A stretch of DNA of 64,000 nt, taken from positions 8,637,554 through 8,701,553 of the forward strand of contig BFEA01000003.1 in NCBI GenBank assembly GCA_003427395.1, in the 5' to 3' direction. Made by a program: the position numbers and the translations under genes. A model generated the notes under the pieces. The model made no database searches and was not told the DNA's origin. It saw nothing but the letters and a program-made list of their open reading frames with translations. The stretch is from Chara braunii. Taxonomy: Eukaryota > Plantae > Charophyceae. This document shows, one piece after another, positions 3,928 to 60,846 of the stretch (position 1 is its first letter; each line of letters opens with the position of its first letter).

Positions 3928-4068
3928 TTTTTTTTTTTTTTTTTTTTTTTGCAAAAACACCCCCTCCGGTGTTAGTGCTGCTGATAAGAGCAGACACCAC
4001 TACCACCAGGAGGGAGGCTCCATCTATTGGTGGGGAGCATCACCTGCTGGAAAGCAGGTCCAGCGTCC
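3928..4068 (-). mobile_element. Poly(A)-tailed retroposon 3' module, copy 1 (double pseudoknot plus hairpin)
   Basis: Core 4017-4068, hairpin ~3970-4005, T-run 3928-3950. Confidence 0.8.
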
Positions 4069-4374
4069 TGTGTGTGGCTTTCTGTCAACGTGTGACTTGT
4101 GTGCTTCTGCAAAGTTGTACCAATTATCATTACATTATTACATCATCATTACATCAGGATCAGGGAGCACAACTTTTTTTTTTTCTTTTTTTTCAATGAA
4201 TTGTGTCTCAGATGGGGACTGCATAGCGTAAAGGCCACATGGGGGAATAATATGGGAAGCTCAGCAGAGATGGGTCAGTCAGTTAGAGAATCAATCAGGT
4301 CTGTTGGCTCACAATGGCTTCTGGCACGGACTAGATCTGCTGCCTGGTCATGCACAGGGGGGTGGCATGCGGAT

Positions 4375-15462: not shown

Positions 15463-17381
15463 TTTTTTTTCGTTTTTTTCCTAAGAGAATTACCTGAAAC
15501 CACTTTACGAGGGGATGTGATACAAGCAGCCTCCCCTAGTAAGGTTCTTGTTGCTCCATTCTATTGCTGTGGAGCTACTGGAAAGTTGGTCCAGCGTCCC
15601 CTTGAATACCTTTTTCTTTTTCTTTCTTTTTTTTTGTTCTTTTTTTGTTGTTTTTGGGCCAAATGCTCCAATCTATTCGTGGGGAGCCACACGTGCTGGG
15701 ATCCGGGCGCAGCGTCCATATGAATTGTACAAACATTAGAATACCGGGGCCATTACCCCCTCGAATACCATATTGATTTTGCAATTATAGGAGAACTTGT
15801 GGATCTTCTTGTCAGCATTGACTACCCCGGGGGAGACTGGGGGGTTCACTTAGCAGGTGAAGAAATGGGGTGCTGCCTGAGTCACCTCTTAACCCTGCTG
15901 TAGGGCGCCTGATCCACTAAACAGAACTGCCTTACTTCTTGCAACCCACCCATTTTGACCGCAACCTCCACTTCTACCCCAGACCATACCTCCTCCAAGG
16001 AGGCTGATGGAGACTGAGCAAATGGACGCAATAGCCTCCTTCCTCTCCACAGATATTTCAATACAGAGAGAGGGCTTCCGATTCCAATGTTGGACCCTAC
16101 ATCACCTAACCTTCTCTACAGCAACCATGTTTGTCCACTTCCTGACCGTACGAACCCGAACGTCGGGCTCATCCTTCAAAGTGTTGGCCAGGGCAATCGA
16201 AGCGATTAGATCAGGCTCTCAAAATTCAAGGTGAAATGGAAAAAAGAAAGCAATAGGGTCGGGGCTGGCAGATGGACCGACTCCTTGAATACAAGGCCAA
16301 GTGAGACGAATGACATGGGGGAAGACCGGACACCCATACCAGATATCTTGCTATCCCGGTGACAACAAAAGGACCAGCCCCACAGACGGCCCAGAGCATA
16401 CTACTGTCGTCAGCCTGAAGACAGCGCACCCAGGCTGACTTTTATGAATGTATACAAGCCATATTTCCACTTAGGTACCGCCAAAATGAGGGAGCGTTGT
16501 GTTTGGGGGAAGACGGTAACCAACACAATTAATCGATGGAATGCACAACTAGGGTCAAACACTCACATCCTTGCTGGGTAGAGCCTTAACGATCAACACC
16601 TCCATTTTCTCAATGATGTGGTACATAGCGTCCGTTTGGACAATACCGGCCCAGGCAGTATCGGAACTTCACAAGAAATGAAGAGCTTATCTCTGGGATG
16701 GAGACCCCAATAAAGAAAAACATGTCCTAGAAATAGCCTGGCATTACAATAGGAGGAAACCCTCAGCAGAAACGAACGTATCGCAACGAAAGTGGGTCAT
16801 CAAATTACTCGTCAGTCCTGGTCTACACCCTGGATTTTTGAAACCAGAGATGGGTCCGAGCTTGCTTCTCCACGATTGACATTATTATTGATTGCCGGTG
16901 TCCTGTGTTGCTGATGGTTGATTGGAAGGACACAAATACCGAGCGGTAACCTGTCGTTAACTGTCTGTGGGAGAATTGGTAGGTACTAGGTACGCTCTTG
17001 CTGAGAGTTGCTCCTGGATCAGGATCGCTCACTCCCCATATTTCCATGCGAAGTCCTCTTCGAGCAATTCCACTCACCTTTCTGGGATATTGCTCTCGAT
17101 GCATTCCAAATTGTCATCCAGATTGCGACAGCCTTTGAGGCATTTCTTGTCTGAGNTTCGTTAAACCGCCACTACCTTTCACAGAGGCGAACTCGAAACG
17201 CAAATATACCACACACCGCATTATTCGGACGGCTGGCGCCACAGAACCAAAATGGCTGCCGGTGCCAGCCAAAAGTTAAAAAGAAAGTCGTGCCGGCGCT
17301 TTGGCAAAGCTTGGCGCAGCGTTCGTTTCCGCCTCGACAAAAAGAAGCTCGGACAAAGTGGCGGTTTTAACCCGGTCCTTG

Positions 17382-17418
<37 letters not shown>

Positions 17419-20400
17419 GAACACCTGTCTGTTTGCTAGTGGTGCTGATACGAGCAGACACCACTAGCACCCATGTAGGGCTCCATCTATTGGTGGGGAG
17501 CTGCACCTGCTGGAAATTGGGTCGAGCATCCCTATACAAATGATGAAAATATGTCTGCTGGAAATCAGGTCCAGCGTCCTTGTGCCATGGTGTGAATGTG
17601 TGTGCTGGAAAACGAGTCCAGCGTCCCTATCGATCTGATCTATAGAACCTCGCAAACAAAATGAGACATCAATCCTATCAGGCGAAACCCTAATCATGAT
17701 GTAATGTGTATTACACTACTGTGATTTGTATCTGCTGGAAATCGGGTCCAGCATCCCTATACCATGTGATGCATCTATATCCAACAGGCAGAAACTAATG
17801 ACCTTTGTGCAATGATAAGATATCGAAGAAGCAATACACTCCATCCTGTACATGTACTTACGTAACCTGTATCTTGAAAAAGAACAGAGGCATTGATTAC
17901 TCCCCTACAAAAAGGGAGGATTGACCTCCTGTTCATGAGGTATTGTTCGTAATCGAGGATTACTAGTATTCGGATGTCATCTATGCTGGCAGAATTATCA
18001 TTGTCCATCCCCTGCAAGCGATCTTCAAATTCACCAATAGCAAATCGAGTTGGCGATGCCCTGACCTATCTTCCCCCTTGATTGAAGTTGCAGAAAGCAA
18101 CTCCAATCAGCAATCTCAACAAGGGGGAGCTTCAAACCAACTCCCACCCTATACTATCCAAAGAAGAGGAGATGAACTCAGAGTACACCATCAGTTTGTA
18201 GTTGTTGAGCAGAGGTATTGATTACTTCCCCACGCCACGGAAGAACCACCTCCAGCGCATGAAGTATGAACGCAGCGAGAAATAACGAGAGAATCCTTCA
18301 TGGTTGATCACCTCACCTGACGAACCAAATCAGAACTTGTGCCCCAAATCCCCAACAGGCAATTATGATATACATCACAAAACCTGAGGGGCGAACCACC
18401 CCCTCCTCCATTGAGGTTGCGGATCGGGCAACCCCAATCAACCAAGGGGGCGGGCAGACTCAACTATCCTATCCCAACCCGATGCCAGCCAAGGAGGACC
18501 AAGCGATGGTAGGGTTTGAGGGAGGGGGAAAATATCAATCCATTTCTTCCAACCCCAATCCCATCCCTATCCACCTCAGCCAATCCCCTCCCCTCTCCCC
18601 CCATACAGCTGATAATAGCGGATGCACGCACCTTGCTGCTGAGCATGTCGCTAACTCGATCTCCGCGCACGATCGTTTTTGTTATTGTTGCTGTAGTAGA
18701 TATTATTGTTATTGTTGTTGTTGTTGTTGTTGTTGTTGTTCATTCCATATGTGACTGACCTTCCCAACCCCTTTTGCCACCTAAGATAACCACGGCTTGT
18801 CCTCGGCGGTCAATGTCGGGGGTGATTGCCACCATCCTTGGTCCAATGGGTCCCCCAAAGAGTGGTTGTCTAAGGACCTTTTCTTTTGATTGGGGTTTTC
18901 TGATCTTTTTTGGGGCATGGCCTTTTCCGTGCCTCGATTAAACCGCCAGTACCTTTCCCAGCTATCGGCCGCAGGCCCTGCTCGCCGAGCTTTCGGGGCG
19001 CATCTGGCCGCCGCCGGAGGCGGAGTGCGGCCTCCGTGTTAACCGGCGCTTTTTTTTTTCTTTTTCACTAGCACCCTCGGGGAGGCTCCATCTATTGGTG
19101 GGGAGCAGCACCTGCTGGAAAGCGGGTCCAGCGTCCCTCACATATGGTTGAATTTTGAAATTTGAAAGTCCAGATTTTCAAGCGGGGAAAGGTACAGGTG
19201 GTTTAAGGATGTCCAATAGAGTAGAGGGGGGTGGGGTTTTCTTCCGGGGGGCGCCTCTGGTCCATCTCCTTTTCCCCGTCTTCAGACTCCCTTCCTTTTT
19301 CATAACCCAGAACAGGCCAGATATATTGGAAGCAGAGTCTACTGGGGTGCAGGTTCCGGTCAGATAACAACGATGGCACGGAAAAAGATCAAGATCATAA
19401 GGCCAATTAAGATTAAGGAGATCCCGGTGGCTGACAACATATGTCACGGTAGCAGTCCCCGTCAAAATTCGGCTCCACTCACGAAGCGGAAGAGCGACCA
19501 GCAGAACTCTGAGAGCTGAGTTATATGTTTCGAGTCTTTTTACCATGAACAGGAAGATGTGGTTCACTGTGTAGTAATAAGATATAAGGAAGCTGCAAAA
19601 TACTGGGTCAGAGCAGAGCAGAGCAAAGCAGAGCAGAGCAGAGAATTGGCCCTAGAGATCCACCTTTTCCCATCCCCTCTTCAGGAACACCCCATTAAAC
19701 ACGTCTCCATCCTCTCCACTAACATGCCTGCTGGTTTCCGCAAGCCAGAAAAGGTGTGGTTCAAACTTCGAAACTGTTACGGAACGCAACAGTCTGGGCC
19801 ATATGCAAAGGGAGATGCAGCATCACGCTCACTGACACAAAGAATGCAAGAGAAAAAGGTTTGGGGGTGAAACAAAGACTTCATGGAGCCTAGGTCAGTC
19901 GGTACACCTTTTTTTCTTTTTTTTCTTTTTTTTAAAGAAAACTTTGTACGCGGGAATCCCCACTTAACGAGGTGGTAAGAGTAACCCTGTTAAGTGGGCC
20001 CCGCCGTTGAAGGCTCCACCTATTAGTGGGGAGCTGCACCTGCTGGAAATCGGGTCCAGAGTCCCTATACAATGATCCAATGTGTACACCTAACAACTGT
20101 TGAAATGCAGACCCGATTTCAAATCCACATCATGGAACCAGATGAATGAAACCATATATCGAATTACATGGGGCCGGTCAGCTCAATGACAATATCTCAA
20201 GGGACAAAGGCGGGGGAGGGGGGGGGAACGACTGCATAGAAGCCGAAATTCTCTGCACAAGTTGTGCAAACGGTGAAAGGCCAAAAGTGTTAATCGTAAG
20301 AAGCCCAGATACACATCCGACACTGTGTGCACGGTTTAGTGAGATCTGGTTAGCAAATGGCAAGGTGGTGGGCCCTGGTGGCAGCACGCCAAGGTTCCAA

Positions 20401-20470
20401 AATATCTTTCTTTTTTTTTCTTTTTTTTTTTTTCAAACAGGACATGCTCCAATCTATTTGTGGGGAGCTC
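15463..20470 (-). mobile_element. Head-to-tail array of about six poly(A)-tailed non-autonomous retroposons sharing the pseudoknot 3' module
   Basis: Cores at 15553-15600, 15665-15717, 17480-17533, 19085-19137, 20013-20065 and 20446-20468 (partial), each next to a T-run on the + strand. Confidence 0.7.
16450..16810 (+). pseudogene. LINE ORF2 fragment (post-RT region)
   Basis: SLLGRALTINTSIFSMMWY...YLWDG...IAW, homologous to GRALVINNVILVALWY in the other LINEs. Confidence 0.7.
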
Positions 20471-20899: not shown

Positions 20900-21437
20900 A
20901 AATTGTGAAAACCGACAAATTGAAATGTTGGTGAAATTTCATGAAAGTGCACTTTTGGCTTGCTGTTCTATATGTTTTTAATTTTTTTTTTCGTTTTTTT
21001 TTTAACAATAAGTTAGTAAGAAGTGCACTCTATAGATTGGTGTGAAATATGGTTAAAATGGCCCTTTGGTTTTCTTATAAATGGGGGAGAAAATTTGGGG
21101 GTCGGTTAACCTTCTGTCCTAGGGTAACCTTCACCACCCTGAAAAGTGCAGTGGGGATCATGTTTTTTTGGTTTTTTTGGCTTTTCAACTTTTTTGTTTT
21201 GTTTTGGGGAGTGGTGACAATTGTGAAAACCGACAAATTGAAATGTTGGTGAAATTTCATGAAAGTGCACTTTTGGCTTGCTGTTTTATATGTTTTTAAT
21301 TTTTTTTTTCGTTTTTTTTTTAACAATAGGTTAGTAAGAAGTGCACTCTATAGATTGGTGTGAAATATGGTTAAAATGGCCCTTTGGTTTTCTTATAAAT
21401 GGGGGTGAAATTTTGGGGGTCGGTAAACCTTCTGTCA
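20900..21437. repeat. ~218-bp near-identical direct repeat pair (20901-21118 and 21219-21437)
   Basis: AATTGTGAAAACCGAC...AACCTTCTGTC duplicated with a ~100-bp spacer. Confidence 0.9.
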
Positions 21438-26790: not shown

Positions 26791-26857
26791 AATAGACTAT
26801 AAAAAGAAGGAAAGATAAATTTTTGATATTTTGATAAATATTTTGATCATATCACTT

Positions 26858-33709: not shown

Positions 33710-36700
33710 ACTGCATAAAGATGTGCTCGATAGTGTCATTCCTTTTTTGCATTGGGAATGCGGCCAAGCATCGGTGGCACCACAGATGCGCTTCCCCCTT
33801 TTGTTTCAAATGTGTATGGTCGATCAGCAAAGCATTTGTCGGCAGACAACGATGGGCAATCTGCAATTGCAATGACGTGATTTTTGCTGGCCTGGTTTTT
33901 GTTCCAATAAACCACTTAATGTTTGAGGAGGGATCGATCCACATTCAGGTGATGGGCCCATCTATCATTAATTCGGTCCCTTTTTTTACCTTTTTTTTAA
34001 CCTGCTATTGGAGGTGATACGAACATTCTCCAATAGCACGCCCCAGTTTATAGATGGTTCCAATCTATTGGTGGGGAGCATCACCTGCTGGAAACTGGGT
34101 CCAGCGTCCCACAGACAAGATCAGAGAAAGTATACCTGGCAGAACAGCATTGATTGCCCTCTCATGAGGGGATTGACTGTCCGCCTCATCAGCAGCCAGG
34201 TCACAGTACTCTCTTGGGTCGAAGCATCCTATACATGGATTTAACAGATAGTGTTTAGGTGGACTAGTTTACCAGTCGTCGTTGCTGTCCCTCGGGCCGT
34301 TTGCCATTGCTATTCCTCTGGGTTGATAGTCAGTTCAGGTATCGGCGTTTGGCGAAGAAAGACCTTAAAATCTTGTTCCTCCTGCAGCACTCGTACTCGA
34401 AACACCTTGAATTTCTCCCGCCACTCAAGGGGATTGCGAGAGCCACGAAGCACCCCCTTTGGCCCGATTGTGAAGTATTCCACCAAAACATCAGATATCC
34501 GCACGATGTGGATCTCCCTTAAGGTGGGGCCATGTTTAAGCACTCTATACCAAGCCAAAGAGATTGCTTCGATAACCGTTTCCAAGTGTTGCTCCGTATG
34601 GTGGCAGTACCTGAGGGTACCTTGCAGTTGGGATGCTGTTTTCCAGTCTTTCCTCCCCTGGTCCCATAGATGCCCAACACGAAATACCCCATTCTTCACC
34701 CACCCCTTCCAGGGGGCTGCTGAACTGTTTAAGATCTGCCCGTAATGGGGGTAATCCACCGGTTACCAAACAGCGGTTGTTGGCACACTTCCTTTCAGCG
34801 CTCCGATGACTGTTTCTAGGGGAGGGGAAGCCCGCGCCTGTTTTTTAGCAATGATGGGCAGAATTCGTCTGCTGCTTGGCCCTCGATTTTGCACGGTATT
34901 GACCAGTAGCGATCATCTAACCATGTAAGCGGGCTAACCTCTGGTGGGGCCGACGGGGCCAGCCGGGCAATGTGTTATAGGGTCAGAATCTGCCAAGGGC
35001 TATCCACAGAGACGATCAGCATCTTCAACCATTTAAGGAGGAGGGCCTGGACTTGTGTTGTGGGATCGATGATGCCCAGGCCCCCCGCCCTTTTCGGTTG
35101 TATGACTGACTCCCACGCTACCCTACTAACGACGTTGGCTCATTCATCTTCTGCTCTTCATAGGAAGGCTGCCACTGTGAATCTAAGCGCTTGAAAAGCA
35201 GTTTTGCTCAAGGGCTAGAGCATCGACTTATACCACAGCGTAGCAAACACTACATTGTTAATGGCCAGCACTCGGGCAAAGATGGAAGTATGCTTGTTTC
35301 GCCAGTCGGATAGCTTAGCTACAAATGGAGTCGAGATCCAATCGTCATTCGAGGGAGGGCGACCCTGGGCAGTCGATGATACCCCTAGAACTCGGACAGG
35401 AGCCTGCAAGGGGAGCCAGTGTATGTTGAGGAAGTCCAGTGGTCGGCCGCCTTGGTAGTGGATCCACTAGCCCTGGGTTTTACTCCCCCAATTCACCACC
35501 ATGTCGCAAACATGGGCAAATTCGTTCGTTAAACATTGAATGTCCATCATGTTCTCTTGTGTGGCATCCACTATGATGGTGGGGTCGTCTGCAAATAACG
35601 AACATATCGGGACCACGTCCTCAGGGATTCGCATAATCTGGATTTTTTTAATGTCCTTATTAACTCGGAGGTTGGTCGATAAGGCTTCCATAATAATGAG
35701 AAAGAGGAAGGGCGCTATAGGGTCGCCCTAGCGTACAGCCATTCCGACTTAATCGGAGGGGTCAGGGTCCTGTTGTTTGCACCCTCGTGGTGACATTGTG
35801 GTGAAGGATACGTATCCACCTACGGAAGACCGGCCCAAAGTTCAATTTTTCCAGACTTTTGTCTAGAAAGAGCCAGTCAACATGATCGTAGGCCTCCTCA
35901 AAATCGATAAAAACAAGGGCTGCATTTTGCTTAGATTGTCGGGACAACTGCAACACCTCATTGACCAGCAAGATATTTTCGTGAATTTGTCTGTGTTGCA
36001 TTAACCCTGCCTATGATGGATGGATCACCGTCTCTAGGACTGGGATCATCTTATTGCCAGGGCCTTAGCCAGCATTTCATAGGTAACGATAAAGAGGGTA
36101 ATGGATCTATAGTTTCGTATATTGAACTTGTCCCTTTTTTTATATGAAAGGGACAATACCCCTCGGCCGACCAACTCCCCCATGTCCCATGTGCACCAAA
36201 CTTCATTATGATATTCCATAAGATCAGGTCTCATACAATCCCACATTGTTTCCCAAAATTCCTTCGGCAAACCATCCAAACCGTTTCTTTTTTCCTCCTC
36301 CATCTGTAGGAGGGTCGTCCATATCTCTTCCTTGGTTAGGGGAGCCTCGAGCCGCTCCTTCTGTTCAAGGGAGAGAGACTTATCAATAGGTTGAAGAAAA
36401 TCCTCAACCTGTTTCCAACGGGTCTCCTCATCAGCAAGAGGAATATGAGTTGCGAAAAGATCCTTAACAAGTCTCAGACAATTTTGACACATCCTGCAGT
36501 TGTGATAGTAGGGTGTGTTTCGGAGCCCTCCGGTCCATACAATACTTTCACCACTTTGCACTTGGCTCTGGCACGGGCAAGGCCGAAAAATTTTGTGTCC
36601 ATTGAACCTTCGGTGGTATAATGAGAGAGTTTACCATGAATTCAAGCACCCTGCCATCGATATTGAGCTTGTTAGAGTAACTGAGTTCTTATTGCCTGAA

Positions 36701-36898: not shown

Positions 36899-37560
36899 TT
36901 TTTTTTTTTTTTTTTTTTAACAATTGCTCCAATCTATTTGTGGGGAGCAGCACGTGCTGGGAACCCGGCCCAACGTCCCTTATAATTGGAATACATTGAT
37001 GGTTAATGAAAATTTGGGATGATTCAGGAATATTTCATGATGATTAAGATAACAAGCTAGAGATTGATGTTGACTACTCAGAATGCTTATCTACTCAGAT
37101 CTCACGTACTACCCTAACCCTAATCTCAGATATTCATACTAACCAGCCAATCTCTACTGAGTGAATATTGATACCAACCAAGCCTCTAACCGGTCTCACA
37201 CCCCAATCTAGCTAGGTTACAGGGCAGCGCCATCCACCCTAGCTCCGACCCTCGTCGACCAAATTGTAGCCTTTGGTCAAGTATTGCAATTGCCTTCCAC
37301 CCTCAACAATCCCAGATCTCTATCCAAGGTCAAGTATTGCAATTGCCTTCCACCCTCAACAATCCCAGATCTCTATCCAAGGTCTCAAGCTCCTTATGAA
37401 GGTTATCGGGCGATGCCCCAACATCGGCCAACGTTGTTCTTGTTTCTACTCAACCTGGGCAAGAACACAATAAGAACTCAATTAGGAAATCAGCTAAACT
37501 AGAATGCAACCTAAGAATTCGGATCTGATAATAGCGGGATCCCGAGCAAACAACCAATCT
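36899..37560 (-). mobile_element. Non-autonomous poly(A) retroposon with the 3' module; body related to 58300-59332
   Basis: Core 36926-36979; 37190-37260 matches the reverse complement of the 58915-58990 repeat; internal 55-bp tandem duplication at 37274-37384. Confidence 0.65.
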
Positions 37561-38721: not shown

Positions 38722-38851
38722 GGGACGTTGGACCCGTTTTCCAGCAGGTGATGCTCCCCACCAATAGATGGACCTCTCCCCGGGTGCTAGTGGTGTCTGG
38801 TCTTGTTAGCACCACTAGCACTGCAGGGGGTGTGTCAAAAAAAAAAAAAAA
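38722..38851 (+). mobile_element. Retroposon 3' module copy (core, hairpin, poly(A))
   Basis: GGGACGTTGGACCCG...CCAATAGATGG; GTGCTAGTGGTG/CACCACTAGCAC hairpin; A-run 38837-38851. Confidence 0.8.
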
Positions 38852-38879
38852 GGATGAAGTGTTGAGTTATTAGGCAGAT

Positions 38880-41800
38880 TGCAACAGGACCCGCTCTCAC
38901 CTACCAGATGGACGACGGTTGACCCTGGCCATGAAGGTTGGGTCTATGTGGAAGAGAAGGACGTGAACGGGCAACTTTTTGGATGGAAATGGGAAGGTAG
39001 AGGTGAACCAAGATGGGATACGAGACCCCCCAACACGTGGTATCCCCCACAGCTGCCTGGAAAAGGCCCTTCCCCCCCCCCTCCCCACCTCCCCAGGCCA
39101 GAAAGAGAGTGACAAGAAACTGAAATCTCACTGGAAGGAATCTCAATGGAAGGAAAAAGGCCCAGGTGGGACACGTAGTATGGGGCCAGAAGCGAAAGAC
39201 TACCTGGGCGAGATGCACGAGGAGGCAAAAGGGAAGGAAGCGGGAAAAATCTCAGAGAAACAGAGGGAGAAGAAGGAAGGGGTATCTCTTTTAGGGGAGT
39301 CGGCCACGAAACCCCTGAAGGGGATGCCAGAGGGGGGAAAGGAGAAGGGAAAGGGGAAAGGAAAACGAAAGCAGGACGTGAAACAGGAGGGGAAGATGGG
39401 AACGAGTCAAACCGATATCTTTAGTGAAGTCTTCGGACCGACTCCCATGGAAGTGGAGGAAATTCAAGGAGCATCCCCCCCCCACCCACCTCTCCCCCCA
39501 CGGTAGATGAGGTGATGCAGGACGCGGAAGAGAAAAAGGAAATGAAGGAAGGACAGACAGACCAGCAGGCTGAATCCGAAACGGCGGAGGATAGATTAAG
39601 AAACGTATATGAATGGATAATGCACAATTTACACCTTAAATTCCCAGATTTGTCTGAGGAATTATGGGACAATACATTCAGAGAACTCATCCCACTATTG
39701 GAAAACAGTGAGAGCCTCAGACTTGTCTTGGACCAGGGACTTCCACAAAAAATGTGTTGGGAAGAGGTCTGCCACCAAATGTTGAGTATCGTTCTCACAA
39801 GATTCCACCCCCCAACTGCTGCACCGGAAGATACCCCAGAGGAACAAGGAAAGAAAGAAGAAACGGTCGAAGACATGGACGGGATAGGAGGAAGTGAAGG
39901 AGGATCACAGACGAAAGCAGACCCCGGGGGCAGACAAGACTGACTGGAAGGAAAGAAGGGAGGGAAAGAACAGACATTGGAGATATTGGGGAATAAAACA
40001 GCCCCCGGAAAAGAAAAGAAGGAAGAGTGGCAGACCCCCCCNAAANGGAAANAANGAACCCCCCCCCCCCCCCCAACAGGCCCTCCCCCCCCACCCGACC
40101 CTCCGGATGAAGAATTGGTCGGTGGGAGGCAGAAGCTCAGACACGTCCTAGAAAAAGGGCAATGGTTGCAATCACTATCAAAAATAGATGTGATGGCAGT
40201 GCCAGTGCGGAAAAAGGAAGGAAGCTGGAAAATAGGTCTGACAAGTCTACCGCAATCACAAAAGGGGGAGGTCACGTTACACGGGTGGGAACCCAAAGTG
40301 CCACTTTGGCTGTCATCTGGGGAGGAGGCATTCCAAATGGAAATGAAGGAATTTTTGCGTTGCACATACTAACCAGGGGCAATGGCAGTAAAAAAAGCCA
40401 CATATGGCCAACATACTTTGACAGATACATATTTATACGTGTTGTTCGAACCTGGAAAGGAGGCGGGCCTGCGGTGGCTCTCACAAAATGCATTGTTGGA
40501 TCTCCAACTTCAGAAAATCCAGAGCAGCAAAAACTGGCCAGAGGGAGATGTTTGTACAACCCTCCTCAAAATTTTGAAGGAAGAACATCTTCACACAACT
40601 GGCACAAAAGAGGCAAATTGGGACCTGGTGGAGTGGGAGGCATTGGGATAAGGGGATGAAGAGTAAGGGTGGAGAGGAAGAAGACAAGTATGGATTTGAC
40701 AAAGATCTTGTACGGGAAGAATAAGGTATGGGCGCAGACAAAGAGAGAGGCAGACTTAGACCTGCGATCTCTAAATGTGAACGGTTTGGCCACGACCTCC
40801 CCTCAAAAGAAACAGGCCCTATGGGAACAGCTAAGAGGGATAGAAGGGAGGGATTGGCCAGATGTCATATGTGTCCAAGAAACCCACCTTATGGACAAGG
40901 CGGAGCACCACCATGCACACAAGGAGGTATGGCCCTACCAGGCTTTCCGAGCGCATGCCCCAAGACCGGGGAGCGCGAGGGTGGTTATTTGGATTCCTCC
41001 CAACTCAAGGGTTGAACCTGTTCATTGGGAGGAAGACCAGATAGAAGGGAGATGGGTGTCAGTCCTGGTAATGCTGGAGCTGGAGATTATACAAATCTTC
41101 TGTGTGTTTGGACCGAACCAGGCAAGGGCCAGGCGAGCTTTCTTCGAAGCTATCACCATCAGAATCCCAGCTGATGGGATCCCGACCATTTTGGCGGGTG
41201 ATTTCAATGCATCCCCCAACCGCTGGCTTGACAGATGGCGCCTTCCCTCCCCATGCCCAGTCTACGTGGAAACAGATGAGCAGATAATCACAAATCTATG
41301 TACATCATTGGGAATGTACGACCCCTTTCGTAGACAATTTCCGACCAGACAAACCTTTTCATGCTATAGAAAAAATGGAACAGAAAAAGTCACAAGATCA
41401 AGAATCGATTTAATATTAATCTCGTAAGACTCGGAAGGGGCTTTGCAATTGGTGGAAGTGTTCCCACGGAGTGCCTACCCTGAGTTAGACCACACAATGT
41501 ACGTGGTCGTCCTCTCCTTTAGGAAGCGGCCAGACCAGGGTCCTGGATTCTTCAAACTAAATACATCCCTATTAGCAAGGAAAGATTTTCAGAATTTTAT
41601 ACACGACATACGGCAGTATTGGAGAACACACAGAGAAACAATTCAAAATGACATCCTGTGGTTTAACAATGGACTGCCCTTTTTAGCCAGAAAATCTAGT
41701 GAATTCGCTAAAGGGCTGGCTACTCGGCGACTTGCGGAAGAAATGGACCTACACCACCAACTATGTCAACTAAAACAACAGGAAGAGCAAAATGAAAATA

Positions 41801-44800
41801 TGGATACAAGGGAGCTCTCTGAGGCCATCGAGTTAACAGAGGCTCGGTTGTTAGAGTACATGGAACACAGATGGCAGGGAGCACGAATTAGGGAGAAACT
41901 GAGGGGACAATAGACGCCCCATTTTCTCCCTTAGCCAGGATAAGGACGGGCAAAACCACTATAGAGGCGATGTATGACCCGTCACAACCTGGGGGCCCAG
42001 TGACCACGTCTACAGCTGGATGTGTTCGGATAGCAAGAGACTTCTTTAAAGACCTTTTCACATCCAGGTGCAAGGAAAAACCATATGAACAAAGGATGAT
42101 AGAAATAGATGGTTTCTTGAACCCATTGCAAAATAGTCTCTCGGAACAGCAAAAGGAAACACTCGAGTTGCCCTTGTCCAAGGAAGAGGTGTGGTCGGCG
42201 CTTATGCAAATGAAAGAGGAAAAGACCCCCTAAATAGATGGTCTCCCTAAGGAATTTTGGGAGTCCACATGGAGCACCTTAGCACACAATCTGATGGACT
42301 ATTATAACGCAATATGGACCACGGGCCAGATGAGTGAGTTCGTGGGACATAGCATTTTGACCCTGCTATATAAAAGGGGCATCAAATGAACATTAGAAAC
42401 TACAGACCAAGCACCCTCTTAACTGTGGTCTATAAATTGGTAACAAAGGCTCTGGCAAACCGCCTGGGGGAGGTGATGGGAGATATTACCCACCCAGCAC
42501 AGACTGGCTTCATCAAAGGGCGAAAAATCCAACACAACATTTTGTTGGTTAACGAGGTCATTAAAGTATCAAGACAATCTAAATATAATGCTGCCATCAT
42601 TTTTGTGAATTTTGAAAAGACATATGATAATGTTGACGAGACCTTTTTGGACAAATGTCTGGAAAAGATGAATTTTGGCCCGGCCTTCAGGAGATGGGTA
42701 TAAATCCTGCATCAGAATGCCACAACGACCGTCTGAATCAATGGTAGACCGACCCCTGCCATATACCTAGAACGGTCAGTGAGGCAAGGAGACCCCATCG
42801 CCCCTTTCCTTTTTGTCATAATAATGGAGGCCCTGACTGCAAACTTAAGAGTCCACAAACTTGCACAAAGACATCTGAAAGATAAGGCTCACCTCTATCC
42901 CAGAGGATGCTATCCCCGTCTGCTCTCTCTTTGCAAACGATCTTACCATAATGATCGATGCATCTCACAAAAATATGCTAGAAATCCAAAAACTGATGAA
43001 TCAGTTCTGCTCCCTTTCAGATATGACGGTAAACTGGGGAAACAAGACACAAGGGTGGTGGTTAAACTACCAAGGAGGGAGACCACCAGACACTACCAAA
43101 ACAAAATGGATACCCACAGAAGCACCGACCAGAATCTTTGGGGTCCAAATGACAGCAAAAGGGAAACCACCCTTGAATGATGAATGACTCATACAACCAG
43201 TCCTGGGGAAACTATCCCAATGGAAGGACCGTCAGACTTCCTTAATGGGTAGGGCCCTAGTAATCAATAACGTAATCTTGGTTGCCCTTTGGTATAAAAC
43301 AACAATCTGGACACTCAGCAAACCTGCGACATCTTCCCTCCAAAGACAGGTGGCAGTTTTTTTATGGAGAAGGAATCATGAATGTCCAAATGCTATCAGT
43401 AGAGTGGCCTGGAAGTCGGTTATACAGCCAAAAACCAAAGGAAGGCTAGGGATAATTGACCCGACCACTCAAGTGATGGCCCTGGCTCTCCAATGGGTAA
43501 AAGGTTTTTTCTTCTCCACACTCGCGCCATGGCAACCATTGCAGCAGATTGCTAGGCTAGCGCCACCTGCGCCCCCAGAGGTCGAACCAGAAACATGGCT
43601 TGAAGATAGATACTAGGCTATACCTCAAAAGTCTACTCCGTCCAATGGGGAAAAAGTATCGGATAGACAAGACTTGAAAAGAGACCCTCTCTGGGCCACG
43701 ATACTGAGGACATGGCGCAAGCTGCCCCTACCCGACAAAATCTCACCCAAACGGTGGGAAGAAGTGGTCCGTCAACCACTGTTCGGAAGCCGATGGCTGA
43801 CTGGCCCCCAAAGCCGAGTCTTCCGGAGCACTGAAAATCCTTGGAAAAGTTGGGTTAAGAATGACGTACTGAGGGTCAAGGATATTTGGGAAAAGGAAAC
43901 CAAAGACTGGTTGTCGGAACCCCAACTAAGAAGGAAATTGAGGTACTGTCATTATGTGGGAGAAGCATTGGAAAACATTATCTTCTCTATCCCACTTGAC
44001 TGGGTCCGAATCCTGAAAAAAGGACCGATGATACTGCAGGGAGATTGGGTAGGGTTCTGGGATACTGAGGGGGTGGTTGGAAACGTAGTGTACACCCGCA
44101 AGGTTGGCATGAGGGCAGAACAGGAAGTGGTGGCCAACCGTTTCATAATAAATGCAGATAATTTTCTGGAACGGATACTGCCAGAAGAGACAGCATGGTA
44201 CCCGACATCCGATATTTACCGTATTTGTGTCCTTACAGAGAAAGGCCGGTGGCAAGCATACAAACCAAACAAACCAATCCAAGAACTGCCTTTAGACCCA
44301 AACGAATGAATACGGACCCAGCAATTTGGAAGGGGGAAGTCTGGGACACGGCAATTTCAGACGCTTTCAGTCAAGGCAACTTACAGAATGTTGTGACCGA
44401 AAGTAAACCTGAAAGATGTCGTCGAGGCGCGCTGGATGAAACATCTAAACATGGGGAGAGACATGTTGCGACCTGTCAAATGGTTCAAAGCAAGGAAAGT
44501 TATGCCCGCGAAGCTAGCCTCACTCCAGTGGCAAGTGGAACATAGGGCATTGTCGGCCGATGACTGGCTGATAGACAAGACGCGCCTTGAACAAAAGGGA
44601 CCGACGCTCCCATGGTGCAAGCTATGCACAACATCCTTCCCGTCTCGAAAATGACCGGAGACCATAGAGCATATGTTTCTGCAATGCCCGACGGCGATAT
44701 GGTTATGGAGATGGTGGGACCGAATATGGAGACAACTGGGTACCTCACGACCCTGCCCATGGGACTAGAGAACGCTCCTCTACGAGGCATGGGCCCCACA

Positions 44801-45717
44801 GCGAACCACCTCCTTCGAAGACAATATGTTTAAAATAGCACGCTGGGCGGTTATCTGGGCCATCTGGCGGAGACGATGCACACTTGAAATAGAAGGGGTG
44901 AACCGAGACGGTACGAAGTTTATCAATGCAATAAAAGAACAAATACAAAATGACATCTCTATCCAATGGAAAAGACTCAAAGAAAAGATTACGCATCTGC
45001 ACTCGCAACAGGAAATTAAACCACGGGTCCCCCCGCCACCGAAAACCCCTAGTCCCTGTGAGTTAGGGTCGGGTTGTACGGAGGGGCGGCGATCGTACAG
45101 AGGCGTCGGGTTGTACAGAGGCCGACGGATCCAATCCCGCCATTTTGCAAGCGGCAACTTTGCCGATTTTTTGTGCTCAGAAGAAGCCATGAAAATATCT
45201 GAAAATTTGAGGGTCCATAGATTAGGTCGTGATCTTTCAAGGGAAAATACCAGGAAAAAAAAAAATCATTTTGACGGTGAAATATTCTTTGCGCCGATTC
45301 GGTTTATTTCCATTTTTTGTCGCAAATTTTGTACGGAGGCCCGCCCGGTTTTCCACGCTGTACGGCCGGTACCCGTCGTGAAACGGCGCTACCGGTACCC
45401 CGAGGTTTTTGACGTCAGGGGGACCTGTGGCAAGCATACAACATATTGTGAGGTTCTGCAAAGACTGGCTGGGTGGAGACCAAGGGGGTTGGATTGCAAA
45501 GGTAACATGGAAAGGAGGGGGGAAGGGGGGGGAAGACGTAGAAGAAGGGGAAAGAGACTACCACCTCTGCTTTCAGGACTGGACAAAGATTGATCCCTCT
45601 ATCCCACACCGACCCCTCTCCGATTTTGTTGAATTCTTCCCGCCCCTGCCCCTAGCTTTGGTTGAGATGGAATGGTACCAGGGCATGGCCAATTAAATAG
45701 TACAAAAAAATAAAAAG
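38880..45717 (+). mobile_element. Decayed L1/Tx1-type LINE (LINE C): ORF1 remnant 38880-40651, ORF2 40690-45696
   Basis: APE motifs (NVNGL, QETH, GDFN), RT motifs (NYRP, RQGDP), Zn finger; C-terminus homologous to LINE A; A-rich end. Confidence 0.9.
45021..45430. mobile_element. ~410-bp TIR DNA element (MITE-like) inserted in LINE C ORF2
   Basis: ~29-bp imperfect TIR CCAC(G/A)GGTCCCCC...AAAACC; internal TTGTAC(G/A)GAGG repeats; LINE homology resumes after it; TSD not clean. Confidence 0.75.
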
Positions 45718-45933
45718 ACTGATCTTAAAATATCAGTGGCCCAAGCAAGGAAAGGTGGGGAGGTAGGTAGCAGGGGTAATGGAAGCCACATTGCGAAGGC
45801 ATACCCAGACAACCCCCGGAGCATCAGGGCAATCATTGCAATCATTGCAGACAACTTTGAGGCAGTCAAGAGCTCAGCCAATCCCCGGAGCACTAGAACA
45901 ATCAATATTGGAAGACCACACAGTTCTTGCTCC

Positions 45934-45936
<3 letters not shown>

Positions 45937-46022
<86 letters not shown>

Positions 46023-46147
46023 NNNNNNNNNNNNNNNNNNNNNNNNNNNNNNNNNNNNNNNNNNNNNNNNNNNNNNNNNNNNNNNNNNNNNNNNNNNNNN
46101 NNNNNNNNNNNNNNNNNNNNNNNNNNNNNNNNNNNNNNNNNNNNNNN

Positions 46148-46215
<68 letters not shown>
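45937..46215. repeat. (GA)n microsatellite spanning an N-gap
   Basis: Direct reading of the sequence. Confidence 0.95.
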
Positions 46216-46218
<3 letters not shown>

Positions 46219-46357
46219 CTCTCCAGCAGATGGATTTTTGCACAATCCTGGTTTTCCCATCTAACAACTGCTCAGTTAACCCCTCAATCTCACTGGGGCA
46301 GTCAATGCTGGCAGCCAGATTCTTACTTACTTTCTGATGCTTAGCAGCTGTTCAAAT

Positions 46358-46499
46358 GGGACGCTGGACCCGTTTTCCAGCAGGTGCGGCTCCCCACCAA
46401 TAGACTGGAGCAACCGGATCGCGCACTAGGGGAGGTTGCTCGTATCACCTTCCCTACAGACGATGGTCTGGCTTAAAAAAAAAAAAAAAAAAAAAAAAA
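46358..46499 (+). mobile_element. Retroposon 3' module copy (core, alternative hairpin, poly(A))
   Basis: Near-consensus core 46358-46411; hairpin 46427-46456 with loop CTCGTAT; A-run 46475-46499. Confidence 0.85.
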
Positions 46500-48150
46500 G
46501 GAGTTATTAAGTGTTCAGGATAGGTTTAAGTGGTGAGAAGGCAGAGTTGACCTACCTTTGTTGTGCCTTACAATCACCATGGTGACCACTAAGTCCGGGA
46601 CTGTGACCCAGCCGTTGACCGCAGAGGAGGAGCACAAGATAGAGGAGATTTTAAAGCAAAGAAAGGAGGACAAAAAAAGAGAAAGAAGGAAAGAGAAGAG
46701 GAGAAAGAGAAAGAGAAGAAGAGATTGGAGGAGGAAAAAAGGAAGCTATAGGAGAAGTTGAAGAAGAGGAAGAAGAAGAAGAAAGGGAGGAGGAAAAGCC
46801 GGAAAGACCAAGAAGGGGGGCAATCCTAATAACGGTCCCGAAGGACCCGGGACACACCAGTGAGCACCACCGAAGGTATAAACATCAGGAGGAGCAAGAA
46901 TGGGCGAGAACGTTCTACATGCCCGGGAGTCAAACGTTGGAAGAGCTATAGGGGTATGTAGCTCACTATAAGAAAGAGTTGGAGGTGCTGGGCGGGGAAG
47001 ATGCACAGATGGCGGAGGTAGAGGTCGGCATGGAGGCCACGCAAAAAGCCACCCAATAGAGAAGGAAGGAGGCAGCAGCGAGGAAGAAACTGCTAGATGA
47101 TGGGGTGGCCATAGCTACGGAGTTGGAGAAGCAGGCAAAGGGAGAGGAGGAGCAAGAGGTGAAAGACCAAATTGGACTGTTGACCGAAGCTGAACTCCAA
47201 GCCGCCCGGGAAACCTCAACACTGCGCACCGCCGTTGAGCGATTAGCTGCACAACACGACGAGTTTCGAGGTAGGTGAAATAACTTTACCACTGCCACAC
47301 TTCGCACAGTCCACGATAAGGTGGCCCAAATCCTCATGGGGGAAATTATAGACAGTAAAAAGATAAGATGTCTCAAAGGACCTCGAAATTAGGCCGGCAC
47401 GAGTGAGGTAGGCACGCAATGGTCGCCGAGACGAGGCACCGCACCATGCGCGTATCGCACCAGTATGCAGCAGTGTGTCGCTGGCGATGTGGGCGCGGGT
47501 TTCCAGCGGGGCTTCTTAGCATTGCCGGCGAGTACGTTTGCAGGCGTGGAGGGGACGTGGTGCTGGTTGTGTGCATGAGCACATTTGGCAATGTCAACAG
47601 CTGGCGAAGTGGGCACGTGCTTCGGGAGGAGCACGTGGCTGGCGCTGGTGGCTATGCGGGCACCACTGGCTGTGCTATGGTGCACAGCTGGCGAGTGGAC
47701 GGGCGTGGGTGGTAGTGTGCTGGAATATGCATGCTGACTGGCCATGCCGCCATGTCAGCACAGCTCAGGCGGCAATGCAGGCATCTCAAGTTGTGGCGGG
47801 TGGTGCTTAATTTCGGCTGATTGATGAGATGCCACTAGATGGCGAGAAGGAAGATAGAAACATGTCACTTGTTGACTCCTTGCTTTTGAAAGCACACAAG
47901 TGCCATCTCTATGCTTCGTGCTCCATTTGAGTATTGTTGCAGGCTAGCATGCCGGATGGAGGGGGGCTTGCTTTTATGCACGTGAAGTCTCTTGAGTAAT
48001 CACTCTCTCTCTTTATCTCGCGAGTTATAGTGGAGGGAGGTCGACTGTTGCGAGGGGGAGAAGAGGAGGGTGTGTCACGGGAAGTGGGAGGAGCATCGTC
48101 AGGAGGCAGTGAGTGAGGATTCGTCGAGGAGAAGTCCACGCGGCAGCAAG
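46500..48150 (+). mobile_element. Internally deleted gypsy remnant: gag N-terminus joined to PPT region and probable 3' LTR starting 47404 (end uncertain)
   Basis: MVTTKSGTVT at 46579 resembles MVTLRSGTVT of element 2; GGACCTCGAAATTAGGCCGGCACGAG|TG resembles GGACCTCGAATTTAGGACGGCGGGAG|TG of element 2. Confidence 0.6.
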
Positions 48151-58269: not shown

Positions 58270-59897
58270 CATGGTTTTAGAGATGGTAGAATCCTGACAG
58301 ATGTCTGCAAAGCCAATGTGTTTCGGGCTCTTGGTTTGCCGATGCTAGAACGACGCTGGCTGGTGCTGGGGCGTTAGCCCTGTGACCTGTTGGTAGCAGG
58401 AGCGTGAGGCCTGGTAGAGAGATCTAGAGATTAGTAGAGGGAGGAAGGCAATCCAGTGGCGAACTGGGGGGAGTCAGCCTTGACAACCTAAAGGGCAGGG
58501 TATAGTCTTGGTGGCAAGATCACATCAGCTGTGACTGGCATTGGTTAGGAAAGTATTGTCTCTGGGGTTGTGTGTTTGGTATAAGGGATGACTAGGTTTG
58601 CTAAAAAAAATAAGAATCCCATAGTTAAATGATAGTTTTCAATCATGTTATATTAATTTACCGCCGCCAGTATAGAGGGATATCACAGGGCTTTTCAAAA
58701 AAAAAAAAAAAAAAAAACTTTCTCTTAGCAATCCATCTTAGGCGGTTTCGATGCTGTTATACCCAGTGATCTGCGGCTGTTCGATACCAGAACGACGCTG
58801 GCCGGTGCTGGGGTGTTGCCCTGTAACCTGCTGATGCAGGAGCGTGAGGCCTGGTAGAGAGATCTGGGATGCTTTGGGGTGGGCATCCCAAGGGATGACC
58901 AAGGGTTGCTGCTGGGATGACGCTGGTCGGAGCTGGGGCGAGTTGTGTTGCCCTGTAACCCAGCAGGGTGGGGGCGTGAGGCCTGGAAGACCTCAGCAGG
59001 GAGTAAGACGGTGTTGGGAAGTCTTAGAAGGGTTTGTTAGGGAACCTGAGGGTTGTGAGCATTCGTAGGACCTCTGTGGCAGGTTATTGCATGAGTAGTT
59101 CCCTAATAGGTCATTAGACACTCTTTATTCTCCCCATGTTTCTGAATCACATCGTGTTCATAGATTGTTCTCAGCCGAAGCCGGGTAATGGCCCCAGTAT
59201 CTGAAATGATCTCAAACGATCACAAATGTTCTCAATGATCTGTACAATTCGATATGGGACGCTGGGCCCAGTTCCCAGCACGTGCTGCTCCCAATGAAAA
59301 GACTGGAGCATTTGTTTAAAAAAAAAAAAAAAGCTTTCTGGTGTTCTGAAATTTAAAATTTTTGGCAGCATCTGGCCTTCTTCCTCAGTCAGGATATAGG
59401 ATTTCAGAGATGGTCAAACCTGGACTGATGTCTATAGAGTTGCTTTGTTCTGTGCCCCTGGTTTGCCGATGCCAGAACGACGCTGGCCGGAGCTGGGGCG
59501 TTGCCCTTTAACCTGCAAATGGCAGGAGTGTAAGGCCTTGTAGAGAGATCTGGGGTTTGCTGAGGGAGGAAGGCAATCCAGTGGCAAACTGGGTGGGCTG
59601 CCTTGACAACCTATGGGGCCAGGGATAGTCTAGGTGGCGAGATGAGGTCGGCTATGGTTGATGTTGATAAGGTTGGTATTGTCTCTGAGTTGCAATGTCC
59701 TGGTACAGGGAGTGCTAGGAGTTGTTCTAGAATTAGGAGACCAGAATTGCTGATATAGCATAGTCTTCTATAAGTTTTGTATACACTAATCATTATCATC
59801 ATTAGTATGATTATCTCACATTTCACATAGAATCAGCAGGAGTTCATCATCATCATCATCATCATATGAGGGACGCTGAGCCCGGTTCTCAGCAAGT
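58270..59897 (+). mobile_element. Two head-to-tail non-autonomous retroposon units with internal ~85-bp repeats; 3' modules at 59256-59332 and 59870-59897 (partial)
   Basis: ACGACGCTGG...GCCCTGTAACC...GTGAGGCCTGG repeated at ~58340, 58780, 58915 and 59465; 59170-59330 matches the reverse complement of 15640-15780. Confidence 0.6.
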
Positions 59898-59921
59898 TCG
59901 GTTCTGTCACTCCGGGTAGAC

Positions 59922-60846
59922 TGTGAGGACCCCGGCCTCAATTTCCTTATTGGTAATATATATATAAAAACAAAAAAGGATTTCACACAGCTAGGCACCA
60001 GAAGTCTCGGTCCCAAGGACCCAATCAGTCCCGGTCTCAGGCTGTCCCAAAGGATAGGTCTTAGGGTTCGTAGGCCAAAGCATCGCAGGTCGGTAGGAGT
60101 CGACAAGTGGGCCGCTATATCTTCGGGATCAGTAAGCAGCTCCTCCTCATTTGCAGTGTGCAAGGATTGGTGACATACTGCTGGAGCCAAGCGCTGGACT
60201 TGGAGCGCTGCCTGGAGGAAGGAGAGCAGCTGGGCGCTCAGCCTGGCTATGGCAAGCAGCCCGGCCTGAGGAGGAGGAAGAAGGGGCCGAAGGAGGAGAG
60301 TGGCGAGGTACCAACCTGGCTATGGTGGACACCGTCTTCATCACCTTGATAGGCGCTGCATCTGGAAGGCCCTAGTTGGGGTAGTGCTACACCAAGGAAG
60401 CTCGAGGCAGAGTCAGGCATGGCGGACTGATGAGCAACGACATAGCTGCTTTGTGTTGTGCTTTGCACAAGAGGGCAGAGCCCCTGGTAGTCCGTCATAG
60501 CCTTGGTATGTGAGAGGAAAAAGAAGGGGGAAGCCATGGCTATGGTGGACCTATTGTTGTGCGGGTAGTAAGAGGGAACTTCGAATATTGATTCGGGTTC
60601 ATCCACTCATTGTTATTATTATTATTCGGAAGAAGAATAAGATTGGCAAAGTCAAGGAGGAGGAGCAAGGTGGAGAGAGAAGGGGAATTTGTCATTGGTC
60701 TTGCTCGTGTACATCTTCTTCTTCTTCTTCTTCTTTCTCTCTTCTTTGGTCTCTATCTCTTTGCAAGTGCTTTCATTTCTTTCGCAATTGGGTGGCATTG
60801 TCTTTCATTGTGAATTTGCACTTTGGGAATGACCAGGATCGTAACA
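59922..60846 (+). mobile_element. Probable solo LTR related to element 1
   Basis: TGTGAGGACCC...CAGGATCGTAACA, colinear with the element 1 LTR; no PBS and no matching TSD. Confidence 0.7.

What the first reader, a model, noticed from the sequence alone, without database searches (positions are those of the whole stretch)
46427..46456. Accessory hairpin with a conserved 7-nt loop on three unrelated stems
A hairpin lies between the pseudoknots and the poly(A). Its loop is CTCGTAT (46427, 17435), CTCTTAT (3975), CTTGTAT (15510), CTCTTAC (19960) or degenerate GTCTTGT (38785), usually with a bulged pyrimidine 2-3 bp below it. The stems are entirely different: GCTAGTGGTG/CACCACTAGC, TAGGGGAGG/CCTTCCCTA and CCCACTTAAC/GTTAAGTGGG. 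Loop conservation with stem turnover suggests a protein-binding site, analogous to the 3' stem-loop of stringent LINE/SINE pairs. Copies with the CGTG-type core lack it.
Basis: partly seen in the sequence, partly recalled or inferred. Interest (0 to 1): 0.75.

Follow-up and report, generated by a model that had tools for sequence, protein, structure and literature searches.

The report
Capped stem on algal L1 tail
In a stonewort-like alga, diverged L1 retrotransposon families end in two predicted pseudoknots and a long hairpin whose tip keeps its sequence while the stem changes in matched pairs; the tip is likely a helper protein-contact site, and the pseudoknots likely the main handle for copying.

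Summary
The hairpin is real. All six loops and three stems are at the stated places, four on the minus strand. I found a seventh copy in the window (34004-34037) and two outside, one with a new stem and the same loop.

Corrections: (1) The stems are one covarying helix (6 of 12 pairs compensatory, 0 of 500 shuffles), not unrelated stems; only 19960 is near chance identity. (2) The conserved unit is an 11-nt apex, UG-YUYNUAY-CA (84% against 58% for arms, p=0.003; loop alone p=0.07). (3) The apex caps a 16-23-bp rod in the 3' UTR of a charophyte L1-clade LINE; L003 joins ORF2 to this tail without a gap.

The double pseudoknot is better conserved (48 of 52 between families with 45% ORF2 identity). 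It is kept by 5 of 5 hairpin-less CGTG copies, three headed by 7SL-like dimers. One copy is polyadenylated inside the stem, and a related L1 lacks the tail.

Best reading: an R2-like pseudoknot-plus-stem template module, with the apex as an accessory, probably ORF2p, contact rather than the essential signal. No binding or function was tested. New variant of a known kind.

The parts
46427..46456 (+). Copy A: apical hairpin of the finding; loop 46439-46445, U bulge at 46436
46414..46471 (+). Full predicted rod (21 bp) that the hairpin caps; fills the space between pseudoknot 2 and poly(A)
46358..46381 (+). Predicted pseudoknot 1 (3-bp and 6-bp stems)
   Evidence: covariation on 15 copies
46383..46411 (+). 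Predicted pseudoknot 2 (4-bp and 5-bp stems, A-rich loop 3), GGTG type
46475..46499 (+). poly(A) tail, followed by one G outside the target-site duplication
46273..46310 (+). Upstream conserved box (two UCAAU-like words around a short stem); also before G, B, D and L003
   Evidence: fold z-scores weak
38875..46499 (+). L1-a: 5'-truncated L1-clade LINE (APE at 40660-41424, RT, ORF2 end near 45669) whose 3' end is copy A; an N gap at 46023-46147 lies in its UTR
   Evidence: TSD 38864-38874 and 46501-46511, 10 of 11
17435..17468 (-). Copy B hairpin (tail 17384-17532; three pseudoknot-1-only repeats upstream to 17760)
3971..4004 (-). Copy C hairpin (tail 3928-4069)
15507..15540 (-). Copy D hairpin, decayed (tail 15463-15600; first strand of pseudoknot 2 deleted)
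19959..19998 (-). Copy E hairpin, most divergent stem (tail 19909-20065)
38786..38819 (+). Copy F hairpin with degenerate loop (tail 38722-38851; TSD at 38529)
34004..34037 (-).
19050..19137 (-). Copy H: both pseudoknots, then poly(A) inside the 5' arm of a B-type stem; no apex
59256..59332 (+). CGTG-type tail without hairpin, ending an element (about 58724-59332) with two 7SL-like monomers at 58789-58860 and 58915-58990
36899..36979 (-). CGTG-type tail without hairpin; 7SL-like monomers at 37440-37373 and 37260-37184
15611..15718 (-). CGTG-type tail without hairpin, 5'-truncated, inserted at the start of copy D (TSD 12 of 13)
20405..20469 (-). 5'-truncated tail classed as CGTG type by its loop 3; no hairpin

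Best explanation
The hairpin is the tip of a long covarying stem that follows two predicted pseudoknots at the 3' end of a charophyte L1 retrotransposon, and it is likely an accessory contact for the element's own ORF2 protein, while the pseudoknots likely are the main recognition signal. Shown: the order (box, pseudoknot 1, pseudoknot 2, rod, poly(A)), the link to L1 ORF2, the covariation, the conserved apex, and the hairpin-less partners. Inferred: ORF2p grips the pseudoknots, as vertebrate R2 protein grips its pseudoknot and hinge. The rod folds out so that the poly(A) stays mostly 5-14 unpaired bases from pseudoknot 2, close to the 7-12 bases of hairpin-less copies. The bulge-hinged U-turn-like apex would add affinity or cis-preference but would not be needed for priming.
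For: L003 joins an L1 ORF2 C-terminus to about 410 nt of UTR, both pseudoknots, the hairpin and poly(A) without a gap. L1-a ends in copy A with a 10 of 11 TSD inside the 55-nt interval that must hold its 5' end. L1-a against L003: ORF2 end 45% amino-acid identity; DNA 65% against a shuffle mean of 58% (max 64%); pseudoknots 48 of 52; the stretch after pseudoknot 2 37 of 61, at shuffle level; apex 10 of 11. Stem covariation and pseudoknot covariation, 94.8% paired, 0 of 500 shuffles. Exterior unpaired bases 5-14 in 8 of 10 rods (E 24, L002-minus 1) against 7-12 in 5 CGTG tails. Hairpin absent in 5 of 5 CGTG copies and cut in H. Precedents: pseudoknot-hinge-stem of A-clade R2 (PMC11601368, passages); stem-loop positioning on human ORF2p (PMC12503042, passages).
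Against: No binding or mobility data exist. The LINE that moves the CGTG copies was not identified and may be another family. L1-c, 51% identical to L003 at the ORF2 end, has poly(A) 93 nt after its stop and no match to the pseudoknot model, so even the pseudoknots may be dispensable or family-specific. H has no TSD and could be a later deletion. The L1-a link crosses an N gap. R2 is a different clade with different RNA-binding domains. A host protein fits the apex data equally well.
Confidence: 0.5

Rival explanations
1. One reading: the apex is the essential, stringent RT-binding loop of the GGTG-type L1 families, as in eel UnaL2; CGTG elements are moved by a separate hairpin-less L1.
For: Conserved apex on a covarying stem, 18-41 nt before poly(A). 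The bulge below the loop recalls the required bulged C of UnaL2 (PMC1636434, abstract and introduction). The monocot-1a L1 hairpin keeps UCU in its loop on a variable stem (PMC3472496, main text and supplementary figure text), and the commonest loop here reads C-UCU-UAU.
Against: H lacks the apex and L002-plus has another tip (2 of 11 GGTG-type tails). Loop position 4 is U, G or C, so UCU is not invariant. No hairpin-less CGTG LINE was found in the 64 kb or the 3 loci. A match of 3-5 letters to the monocot loop is too short to show homology.
Confidence: 0.2
2. The apex binds a host protein that governs 3'-end formation, tail quality, stability or translation of the L1 mRNA; partner elements with other heads would not need it.
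For: Only LINE-type (GGTG) tails have it. B-type hairpins occur in oligo-dT RNA reads (329 reads, 205 on the strand expected for sense). The loop fits the Y-U-N-N-N-R pattern of anticodon-like U-turn loops in 8 of 9 copies (pattern recalled). G follows or interrupts most A-tails.
Against: G-ended tails occur in hairpin-less copies too (S59, S599). A sense-read group of about 56 of 205 carries a heavily changed loop and is still in poly(A) RNA. The anticodon-equivalent middle base varies, which argues against synthetase mimicry.
Confidence: 0.2
3. Only the rod matters, as a spacer; the apex persists through shared ancestry or because it folds a stable cap, and nothing reads its sequence.
For: Arms are still 58% identical across stem types, and the 7-nt loop alone is not significant (p=0.07). 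Within the B family, loop and stem are about equally invariant. L002-plus has a 23-bp rod with a different tip.
Against: The apex is kept at 9-10 of 11 between lineages whose neighbouring UTR is at shuffle level. Five loop positions vary by under 1% in the listed DNA rows while two vary by 19-22% and over 90% from copy B. In A, E and L002-minus the apex pairs are not even in the minimum-energy fold.
Confidence: 0.1

Closest known systems
Monocot-1a L1 / ZmSINE2-3 3' hairpin (Ohshima 2012, PMC3472496)
   Same: Green-plant L1-clade LINE; hairpin just before poly(A); variable stem with compensatory changes; pyrimidine-rich loop containing UCU.
   Different: The monocot tail is a short hairpin with a 5-nt loop and a conserved CGAG 3' of the stem, and the SINEs share it. 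Here a 16-23-bp rod with a bulged 7-nt loop follows two pseudoknots, and the partner elements drop the hairpin.
Eel UnaL2 / UnaSINE stem-loop (Nomura 2006, PMC1636434)
   Same: Specific loop above a bulged pyrimidine on a long stem at the 3' end of a LINE.
   Different: L2 clade, GGAUA loop, UGUAA repeats; shown to be essential and shared with its SINEs. None of this is shown here.
Vertebrate A-clade R2 3' module, pseudoknot-hinge-stem (PMC11601368)
   Same: Pseudoknot 5' of a terminal stem, a few unpaired bases before the priming region, divergent sequence with kept architecture.
   Different: R2 has a restriction-like endonuclease, zinc fingers, an rDNA target, one pseudoknot and a 6-nt GGAAAAG-containing hinge. 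Here an APE-type L1 has two pseudoknots, mostly a 0-3-nt joint and a conserved apex.
Chlamydomonas L1-1_CR / SINEX-3_CR shared tail (PMC3472496)
   Same: Green-algal L1 sharing a 3' tail and poly(A) with a short partner.
   Different: tRNA-headed SINE; no pseudoknot described; by eye its printed tail shows neither this core nor this apex.
7SL-derived SINEs (Alu, B1, Tu, Urop, hagfish SINE1; PMC13023118)
   Same: The hairpin-less partners carry two tandem Alu-domain-like monomers and an L1-type tail.
   Different: Reported only from animals. Here the Rfam score is far below the gathering threshold, and the element begins upstream of the first monomer.

Membership tests
L1-clade LINE 3' end | APE endonuclease, RT and C-terminal zinc region upstream; poly(A); TSD | tested here: met
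   PF03372 in L1-a (E 4e-11); PF00078 in L1-c, with L1-a 67% identical over 162 aa; zf-RVT in L1-d below the curated cut-off; TSD and tail; L003.
L1-clade LINE 3' end | Sub-branch (land-plant L1, green-algal L1 or Tx1) | not tested
   No tree built. Best hits are Chara braunii, then Closterium, a cnidarian and unnamed sequences.
Stringent LINE/SINE 3' stem-loop | Stem-loop in the LINE 3' UTR next to the terminal repeat | tested here: met
   18-41 nt from loop to poly(A) in 9 of 9; L003 and L1-a.
Stringent LINE/SINE 3' stem-loop | Conserved loop on a covarying stem | tested here: met
   Met for the 11-nt apex; marginal for the 7-nt loop alone (p=0.07).
Stringent LINE/SINE 3' stem-loop | The stem-loop is shared with the partner SINE | tested here: not met
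   0 of 5 CGTG copies carry it; they share the pseudoknots. Their true partner LINE is not identified.
Stringent LINE/SINE 3' stem-loop | Required for retrotransposition and bound by the RT | not testable with these tools
   Circumstantial against: H, L002-plus, L1-c.
A-clade R2 pseudoknot-hinge-stem module | Pseudoknot 5' of a terminal stem | tested here: met
   Topology by covariation and folding; not probed.
A-clade R2 pseudoknot-hinge-stem module | R2 protein (RLE, zinc fingers) and GGAAAAG hinge motif | tested here: not met
   APE-type L1; no such hinge in alignment A1. It may work like R2 but is not a member.
tRNA anticodon mimic / tRNA-like structure | Y-U-N-N-N-R loop on a 5-bp stem with a fixed anticodon | tested here: not met
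   Loop pattern (recalled) fits 8 of 9, but the stem is 2-3 bp before a bulge and the middle base varies; ARAGORN found 0 genes.
Known ribozymes and other Rfam families | Match to an Rfam model | tested here: not met
   No credible match on any tail among 7 hits in the window at E<=1 and 7 in three loci at E<=2; the few that touch a tail are low-scoring hairpin or poly(T) matches far below gathering. Rfam models pseudoknots poorly.
7SL-derived SINE (for the CGTG partners) | Head with the SRP Alu-domain sequence and fold | tested here: inconclusive
   Metazoa_SRP 27.2 bits against gathering 70 on one monomer; no SRP hit on L001; three-way fold 94.9% paired, 3 of 500 shuffles, 3 of 16 pairs compensatory.
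7SL-derived SINE (for the CGTG partners) | Identity to the host 7SL gene; RNA starts at the head under Pol III | not testable with these tools
   No genome held. Similarity between S59 and L001 extends about 50 nt upstream of the first monomer.

The most novel reading that the evidence does not exclude
A charophyte L1 lineage selects its template with an R2-like double-pseudoknot-plus-stem module, so structure-based recognition survives in the algal relatives of land plants. A dimeric 7SL-headed element, an 'Alu' outside animals, parasitises it by keeping the pseudoknots and replacing the hairpin: SRP Alu domains take over the tethering job of the apex.
Probability: 0.15. Interest if true: 0.82.

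Novelty: new variant of a known kind. Interest (0 to 1): 0.55.

Why it matters
L1 is the textbook 'relaxed' LINE that reads only poly(A). Ohshima (PMC3472496) proposed that green-plant L1s were ancestrally stringent, from one monocot lineage and one Chlamydomonas pair. A charophyte L1 with a deeply conserved, modular, structured tail fills the gap between those two points. It also gives ready-made natural variants (with apex, without apex, cut stem, other tip) for asking which part an L1 ORF2p reads. If the pseudoknots are the signal, L1 and vertebrate R2 have converged on one template architecture, and a compact selective 3' module for an APE-type RT would be useful for RNA-templated gene insertion. 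The hairpin alone is a modest addition to a known class.

Tried and rejected
No whole genome is held, so the genome-wide motif search could not be run. Pattern scans of viral contigs and prokaryote genomes gave 0 matches. An RT search in viral contigs gave 5 pattern hits, none confirmed. Earlier findings: none. No listed holder run is on record as RNA; raw RNA reads were laid instead.

Ribozyme (HDV-like, hammerhead, twister): no Rfam match, and the strand order does not fit an HDV fold by inspection. tRNA origin: ARAGORN 0; variable middle base. Loop-to-upstream kissing: runs of 4-7 pairs with the G-run at the start of pseudoknot 1 appear in some copies but rest on G-U pairs, do not covary, and are absent in B, C, D and L002-minus. 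Exonuclease-resistant short RNA starting at pseudoknot 1: no pile-up of read starts or ends, and TSD-defined 5' ends lie 18-183 nt upstream. Partner RT = the Penelope-like RT at 2156-3500: copy C lies tail-on on the opposite strand, and L003 ties the tail to L1 instead. Summed contig depths (1.6 million on the pseudoknots, 0.10 million on the B hairpin, 0.0007 million on the A hairpin in run X3) were not used as copy numbers, as the tool warns. RNAalifold on the MAFFT alignment of whole tails mis-registered the apex; equal-length apex-centred pieces were used instead, which left out H and L002-plus.

Full report
CONTEXT. The window is repeat-rich eukaryotic DNA. The best relatives of its LINE ORF2 are named Chara braunii proteins (67% and 57% identity), so the source is very likely a stonewort. 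It holds Ty3/Gypsy pieces, at least five L1-clade pieces, a Penelope-like RT and many A-tailed short insertions. No whole genome is held.

OBSERVATION. All six loops and three stems are present, four copies on the minus strand. A pseudoknot-anchored search added copy G (34004-34037, loop TTCGTAT) and copy H, whose poly(A) starts inside the 5' arm. One metagenome scan gave 3 loci with 4 more tails. Of 11 GGTG-type tails, 8 match the apex at 9 or more of 11 positions, F at 8 of 11, H is cut, and L002-plus has another tip. Of 5 CGTG-type tails none has a hairpin. A variant tail at 59868-59933 was left out of these counts. A motif scan blind to the pseudoknots found 6 stem-bearing hits among 56 core matches, all behind a pseudoknot; shuffles gave 0.63 on average. 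This test is partly circular and missed F and L002-minus.

THE STEMS ARE ONE HELIX. Apex-centred 34-nt pieces of 9 copies align without gaps. With 12 named pairs, 88% of 108 cells pair, 6 pairs show changes on both sides, 0 of 500 shuffles reach the covariation score, and slid registers fall to 28-64%. Related sequences can beat such shuffles, so this is support, not a probability. Arms of A, B, D and G are 5-7 of 10 identical to B; E is 3-4 of 10. Against the B-type reference, four other stem types match the 11-nt apex at 37 of 44, the loop at 22 of 28 and the arms at 46 of 80 (Fisher p=0.003 and 0.07). The hairpin caps a rod of 16-23 predicted pairs that fills the 58-81 nt between pseudoknot 2 and the tail. 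Unpaired exterior bases number 5-14 in 8 of 10 rods (E 24, L002-minus 1) and 7-12 in the 5 hairpin-less tails.

GENOME-WIDE VIEW FROM READS. Contigs of three DNA runs of one sample laid on the B hairpin (507, 973 and 982 records) show loop position 4 as U in 91-95% of depth and C in 3-4%, and position 7 as C in 19-22%. Listed changes at the other five loop positions stay under 1%. Three stem positions vary by 3-12% without a listed partner change (only records at 80% or more are laid, and ends are under-reported). So the commonest loop is CUCUUAU, and within this family loop and stem are about equally fixed. Oligo-dT reads cover the pseudoknots (3333 of 8.9 million and 7190 of 16.7 million reads read; about three quarters on the strand expected for sense), with very diverse flanks and no pile-up of ends. 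329 reads of one run lie on the B hairpin, many running into A-tails; about 56 sense reads carry a heavily changed loop. These may be read-through transcripts.

IT IS AN L1 3' END. L003 runs from an L1 ORF2 C-terminus (58% to L1-d, 51% to L1-c, 45% to L1-a) through about 410 nt of UTR to both pseudoknots, a B-type hairpin and poly(A). In the window, L1-a has APE and RT, ends its ORF2 near 45669 and is closed by copy A. An 11-nt TSD with one mismatch lies in the 55 nt where its 5' end must be. An N gap in the UTR weakens this second link, and such a match would not be significant over the whole 12 kb searched. Between L1-a and L003 the ORF2 DNA (65%) and the stretch after pseudoknot 2 (61%) are at or barely above shuffle level, the pseudoknots are 48 of 52 identical, and the apex is 10 of 11. 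Selection on both is the plain reading. The pseudoknots themselves covary: 94.8% of 191 cells pair, 3 of 13 pairs are compensatory (the second stem of pseudoknot 2 was counted apart, 4-5 of 5 pairs in 16 of 16).

WHAT THE PARTNERS KEEP. The three CGTG copies with intact 5' parts (S59, S36, L001) are headed by two tandem monomers resembling the SRP Alu domain. They keep both pseudoknots and drop the rod. In stringent pairs the shared part is the signal, which points to the pseudoknots. Against this, L1-c has a poly(A) 93 nt after its stop and no match to model R1 at E<=1, so relaxed ends also exist in this lineage, and the LINE that moves the CGTG elements is unknown.

MECHANISM. Most likely (0.5), ORF2p reads the pseudoknots, the rod keeps the poly(A) close, and the apex adds a secondary contact. 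Only the anatomy and conservation are shown; every binding step is inferred. Rivals: essential stringent loop (0.2), host-factor site (0.2), unread cap (0.1).

COMPARISON. Monocot-1a L1 keeps UCU in the loop of a covarying 3' hairpin shared with SINEs (PMC3472496: main text and most of the references, parts 1-2 of 3, and the text of the supplementary figure PDF; structure drawings, two TIFF figures and the .doc were not readable and may bear on the comparison). The review PMC3747384 (passages) repeats this. UnaL2 needs its loop and bulged C (PMC1636434: abstract, introduction). A-clade R2 uses a pseudoknot-hinge-stem (PMC11601368: passages; PMC12503042: passages). 7SL SINEs are reported only from animals (PMC13023118: passages). 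PMC8501958 was seen as abstract and outline only and not used. Eight literature searches listed no description of this tail or of a charophyte 7SL SINE. Repbase and subscription papers were not searchable, so this is not proof of novelty. The anticodon-loop pattern is recalled, not from a call.

VERDICT. Real, selected RNA structure at an L1 3' end; a new variant of the LINE 3' recognition hairpin, with the surprise lying in the double pseudoknot and the hairpin-less partners. Interest 0.55.

Noticed in passing
58789-58860 +, 58915-58990 +, 37440-37373 -, 37260-37184 -, 59474-59546 +, 58347-58420 +; L001 183-253, 310-386, 1308-1367: SRP (7SL) Alu-domain-like monomers. Tandem pairs head the CGTG-type tails, suggesting a dimeric Alu-like element in an alga; two single monomers lie in another repeat that has no pseudoknot tail of its own. 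Rfam score is low (27 against 70 bits); the fold is kept. Worth its own follow-up.
   Followed up: partly
46273-46310 +; near 34161 -, 17905 -, 15829 -; L003 near 194 -: A second conserved 3' UTR box, two UCAAU-like words around a short stem, 35-140 nt before pseudoknot 1; it has its own depth peak in DNA and RNA. Further copies near 45826 and 45880.
   Followed up: partly
A-tails across the window: A G follows 16 of the 17 tails examined (counting the G at the end of the tail at 20405), and in 4 of 7 TSD-defined copies it lies outside the TSD; many tails are (AnG) repeats. Possibly an RT-added base or mixed tailing.
   Followed up: partly
17555-17760 -: Three pseudoknot-1-only copies in tandem upstream of copy B; similar back-jumps to the start of pseudoknot 1 appear in contigs. 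L003 has a weak extra copy too.
   Followed up: no
22600-31512 +: L1-c, same lineage, ends in poly(A) 93 nt after its stop with three small hairpins and no pseudoknot match.
   Followed up: partly
59868-59977 + and 20542-20670 -: Two other A-tailed 3' ends with variant pseudoknot-like cores; the first has compensatory changes in pseudoknot 1 and a 10 of 11 TSD.
   Followed up: no
2156-3500 +: Decayed RT with Penelope-like motifs by inspection (weak RVT_1 hit, E 4e-4).
   Followed up: no
1504-1614: Near-perfect hairpin of about 50 bp inside an L1-like region; Rfam miRNA hits are below gathering and generic.
   Followed up: no
15757-15769 and 15598-15610 -; 17576-17583 -: Two insertions have TSDs that include the G-run at the start of another copy's pseudoknot 1, hinting at clustering of insertions in earlier tails.
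   Followed up: no
61065-61341; 20901-21436: Tandem repeats of 46-47 nt (5 copies) and 318 nt (2 copies, A-tailed).
   Followed up: no
L001 700-735: The tail is followed by an inverted copy of the element's own upstream sequence.
   Followed up: no
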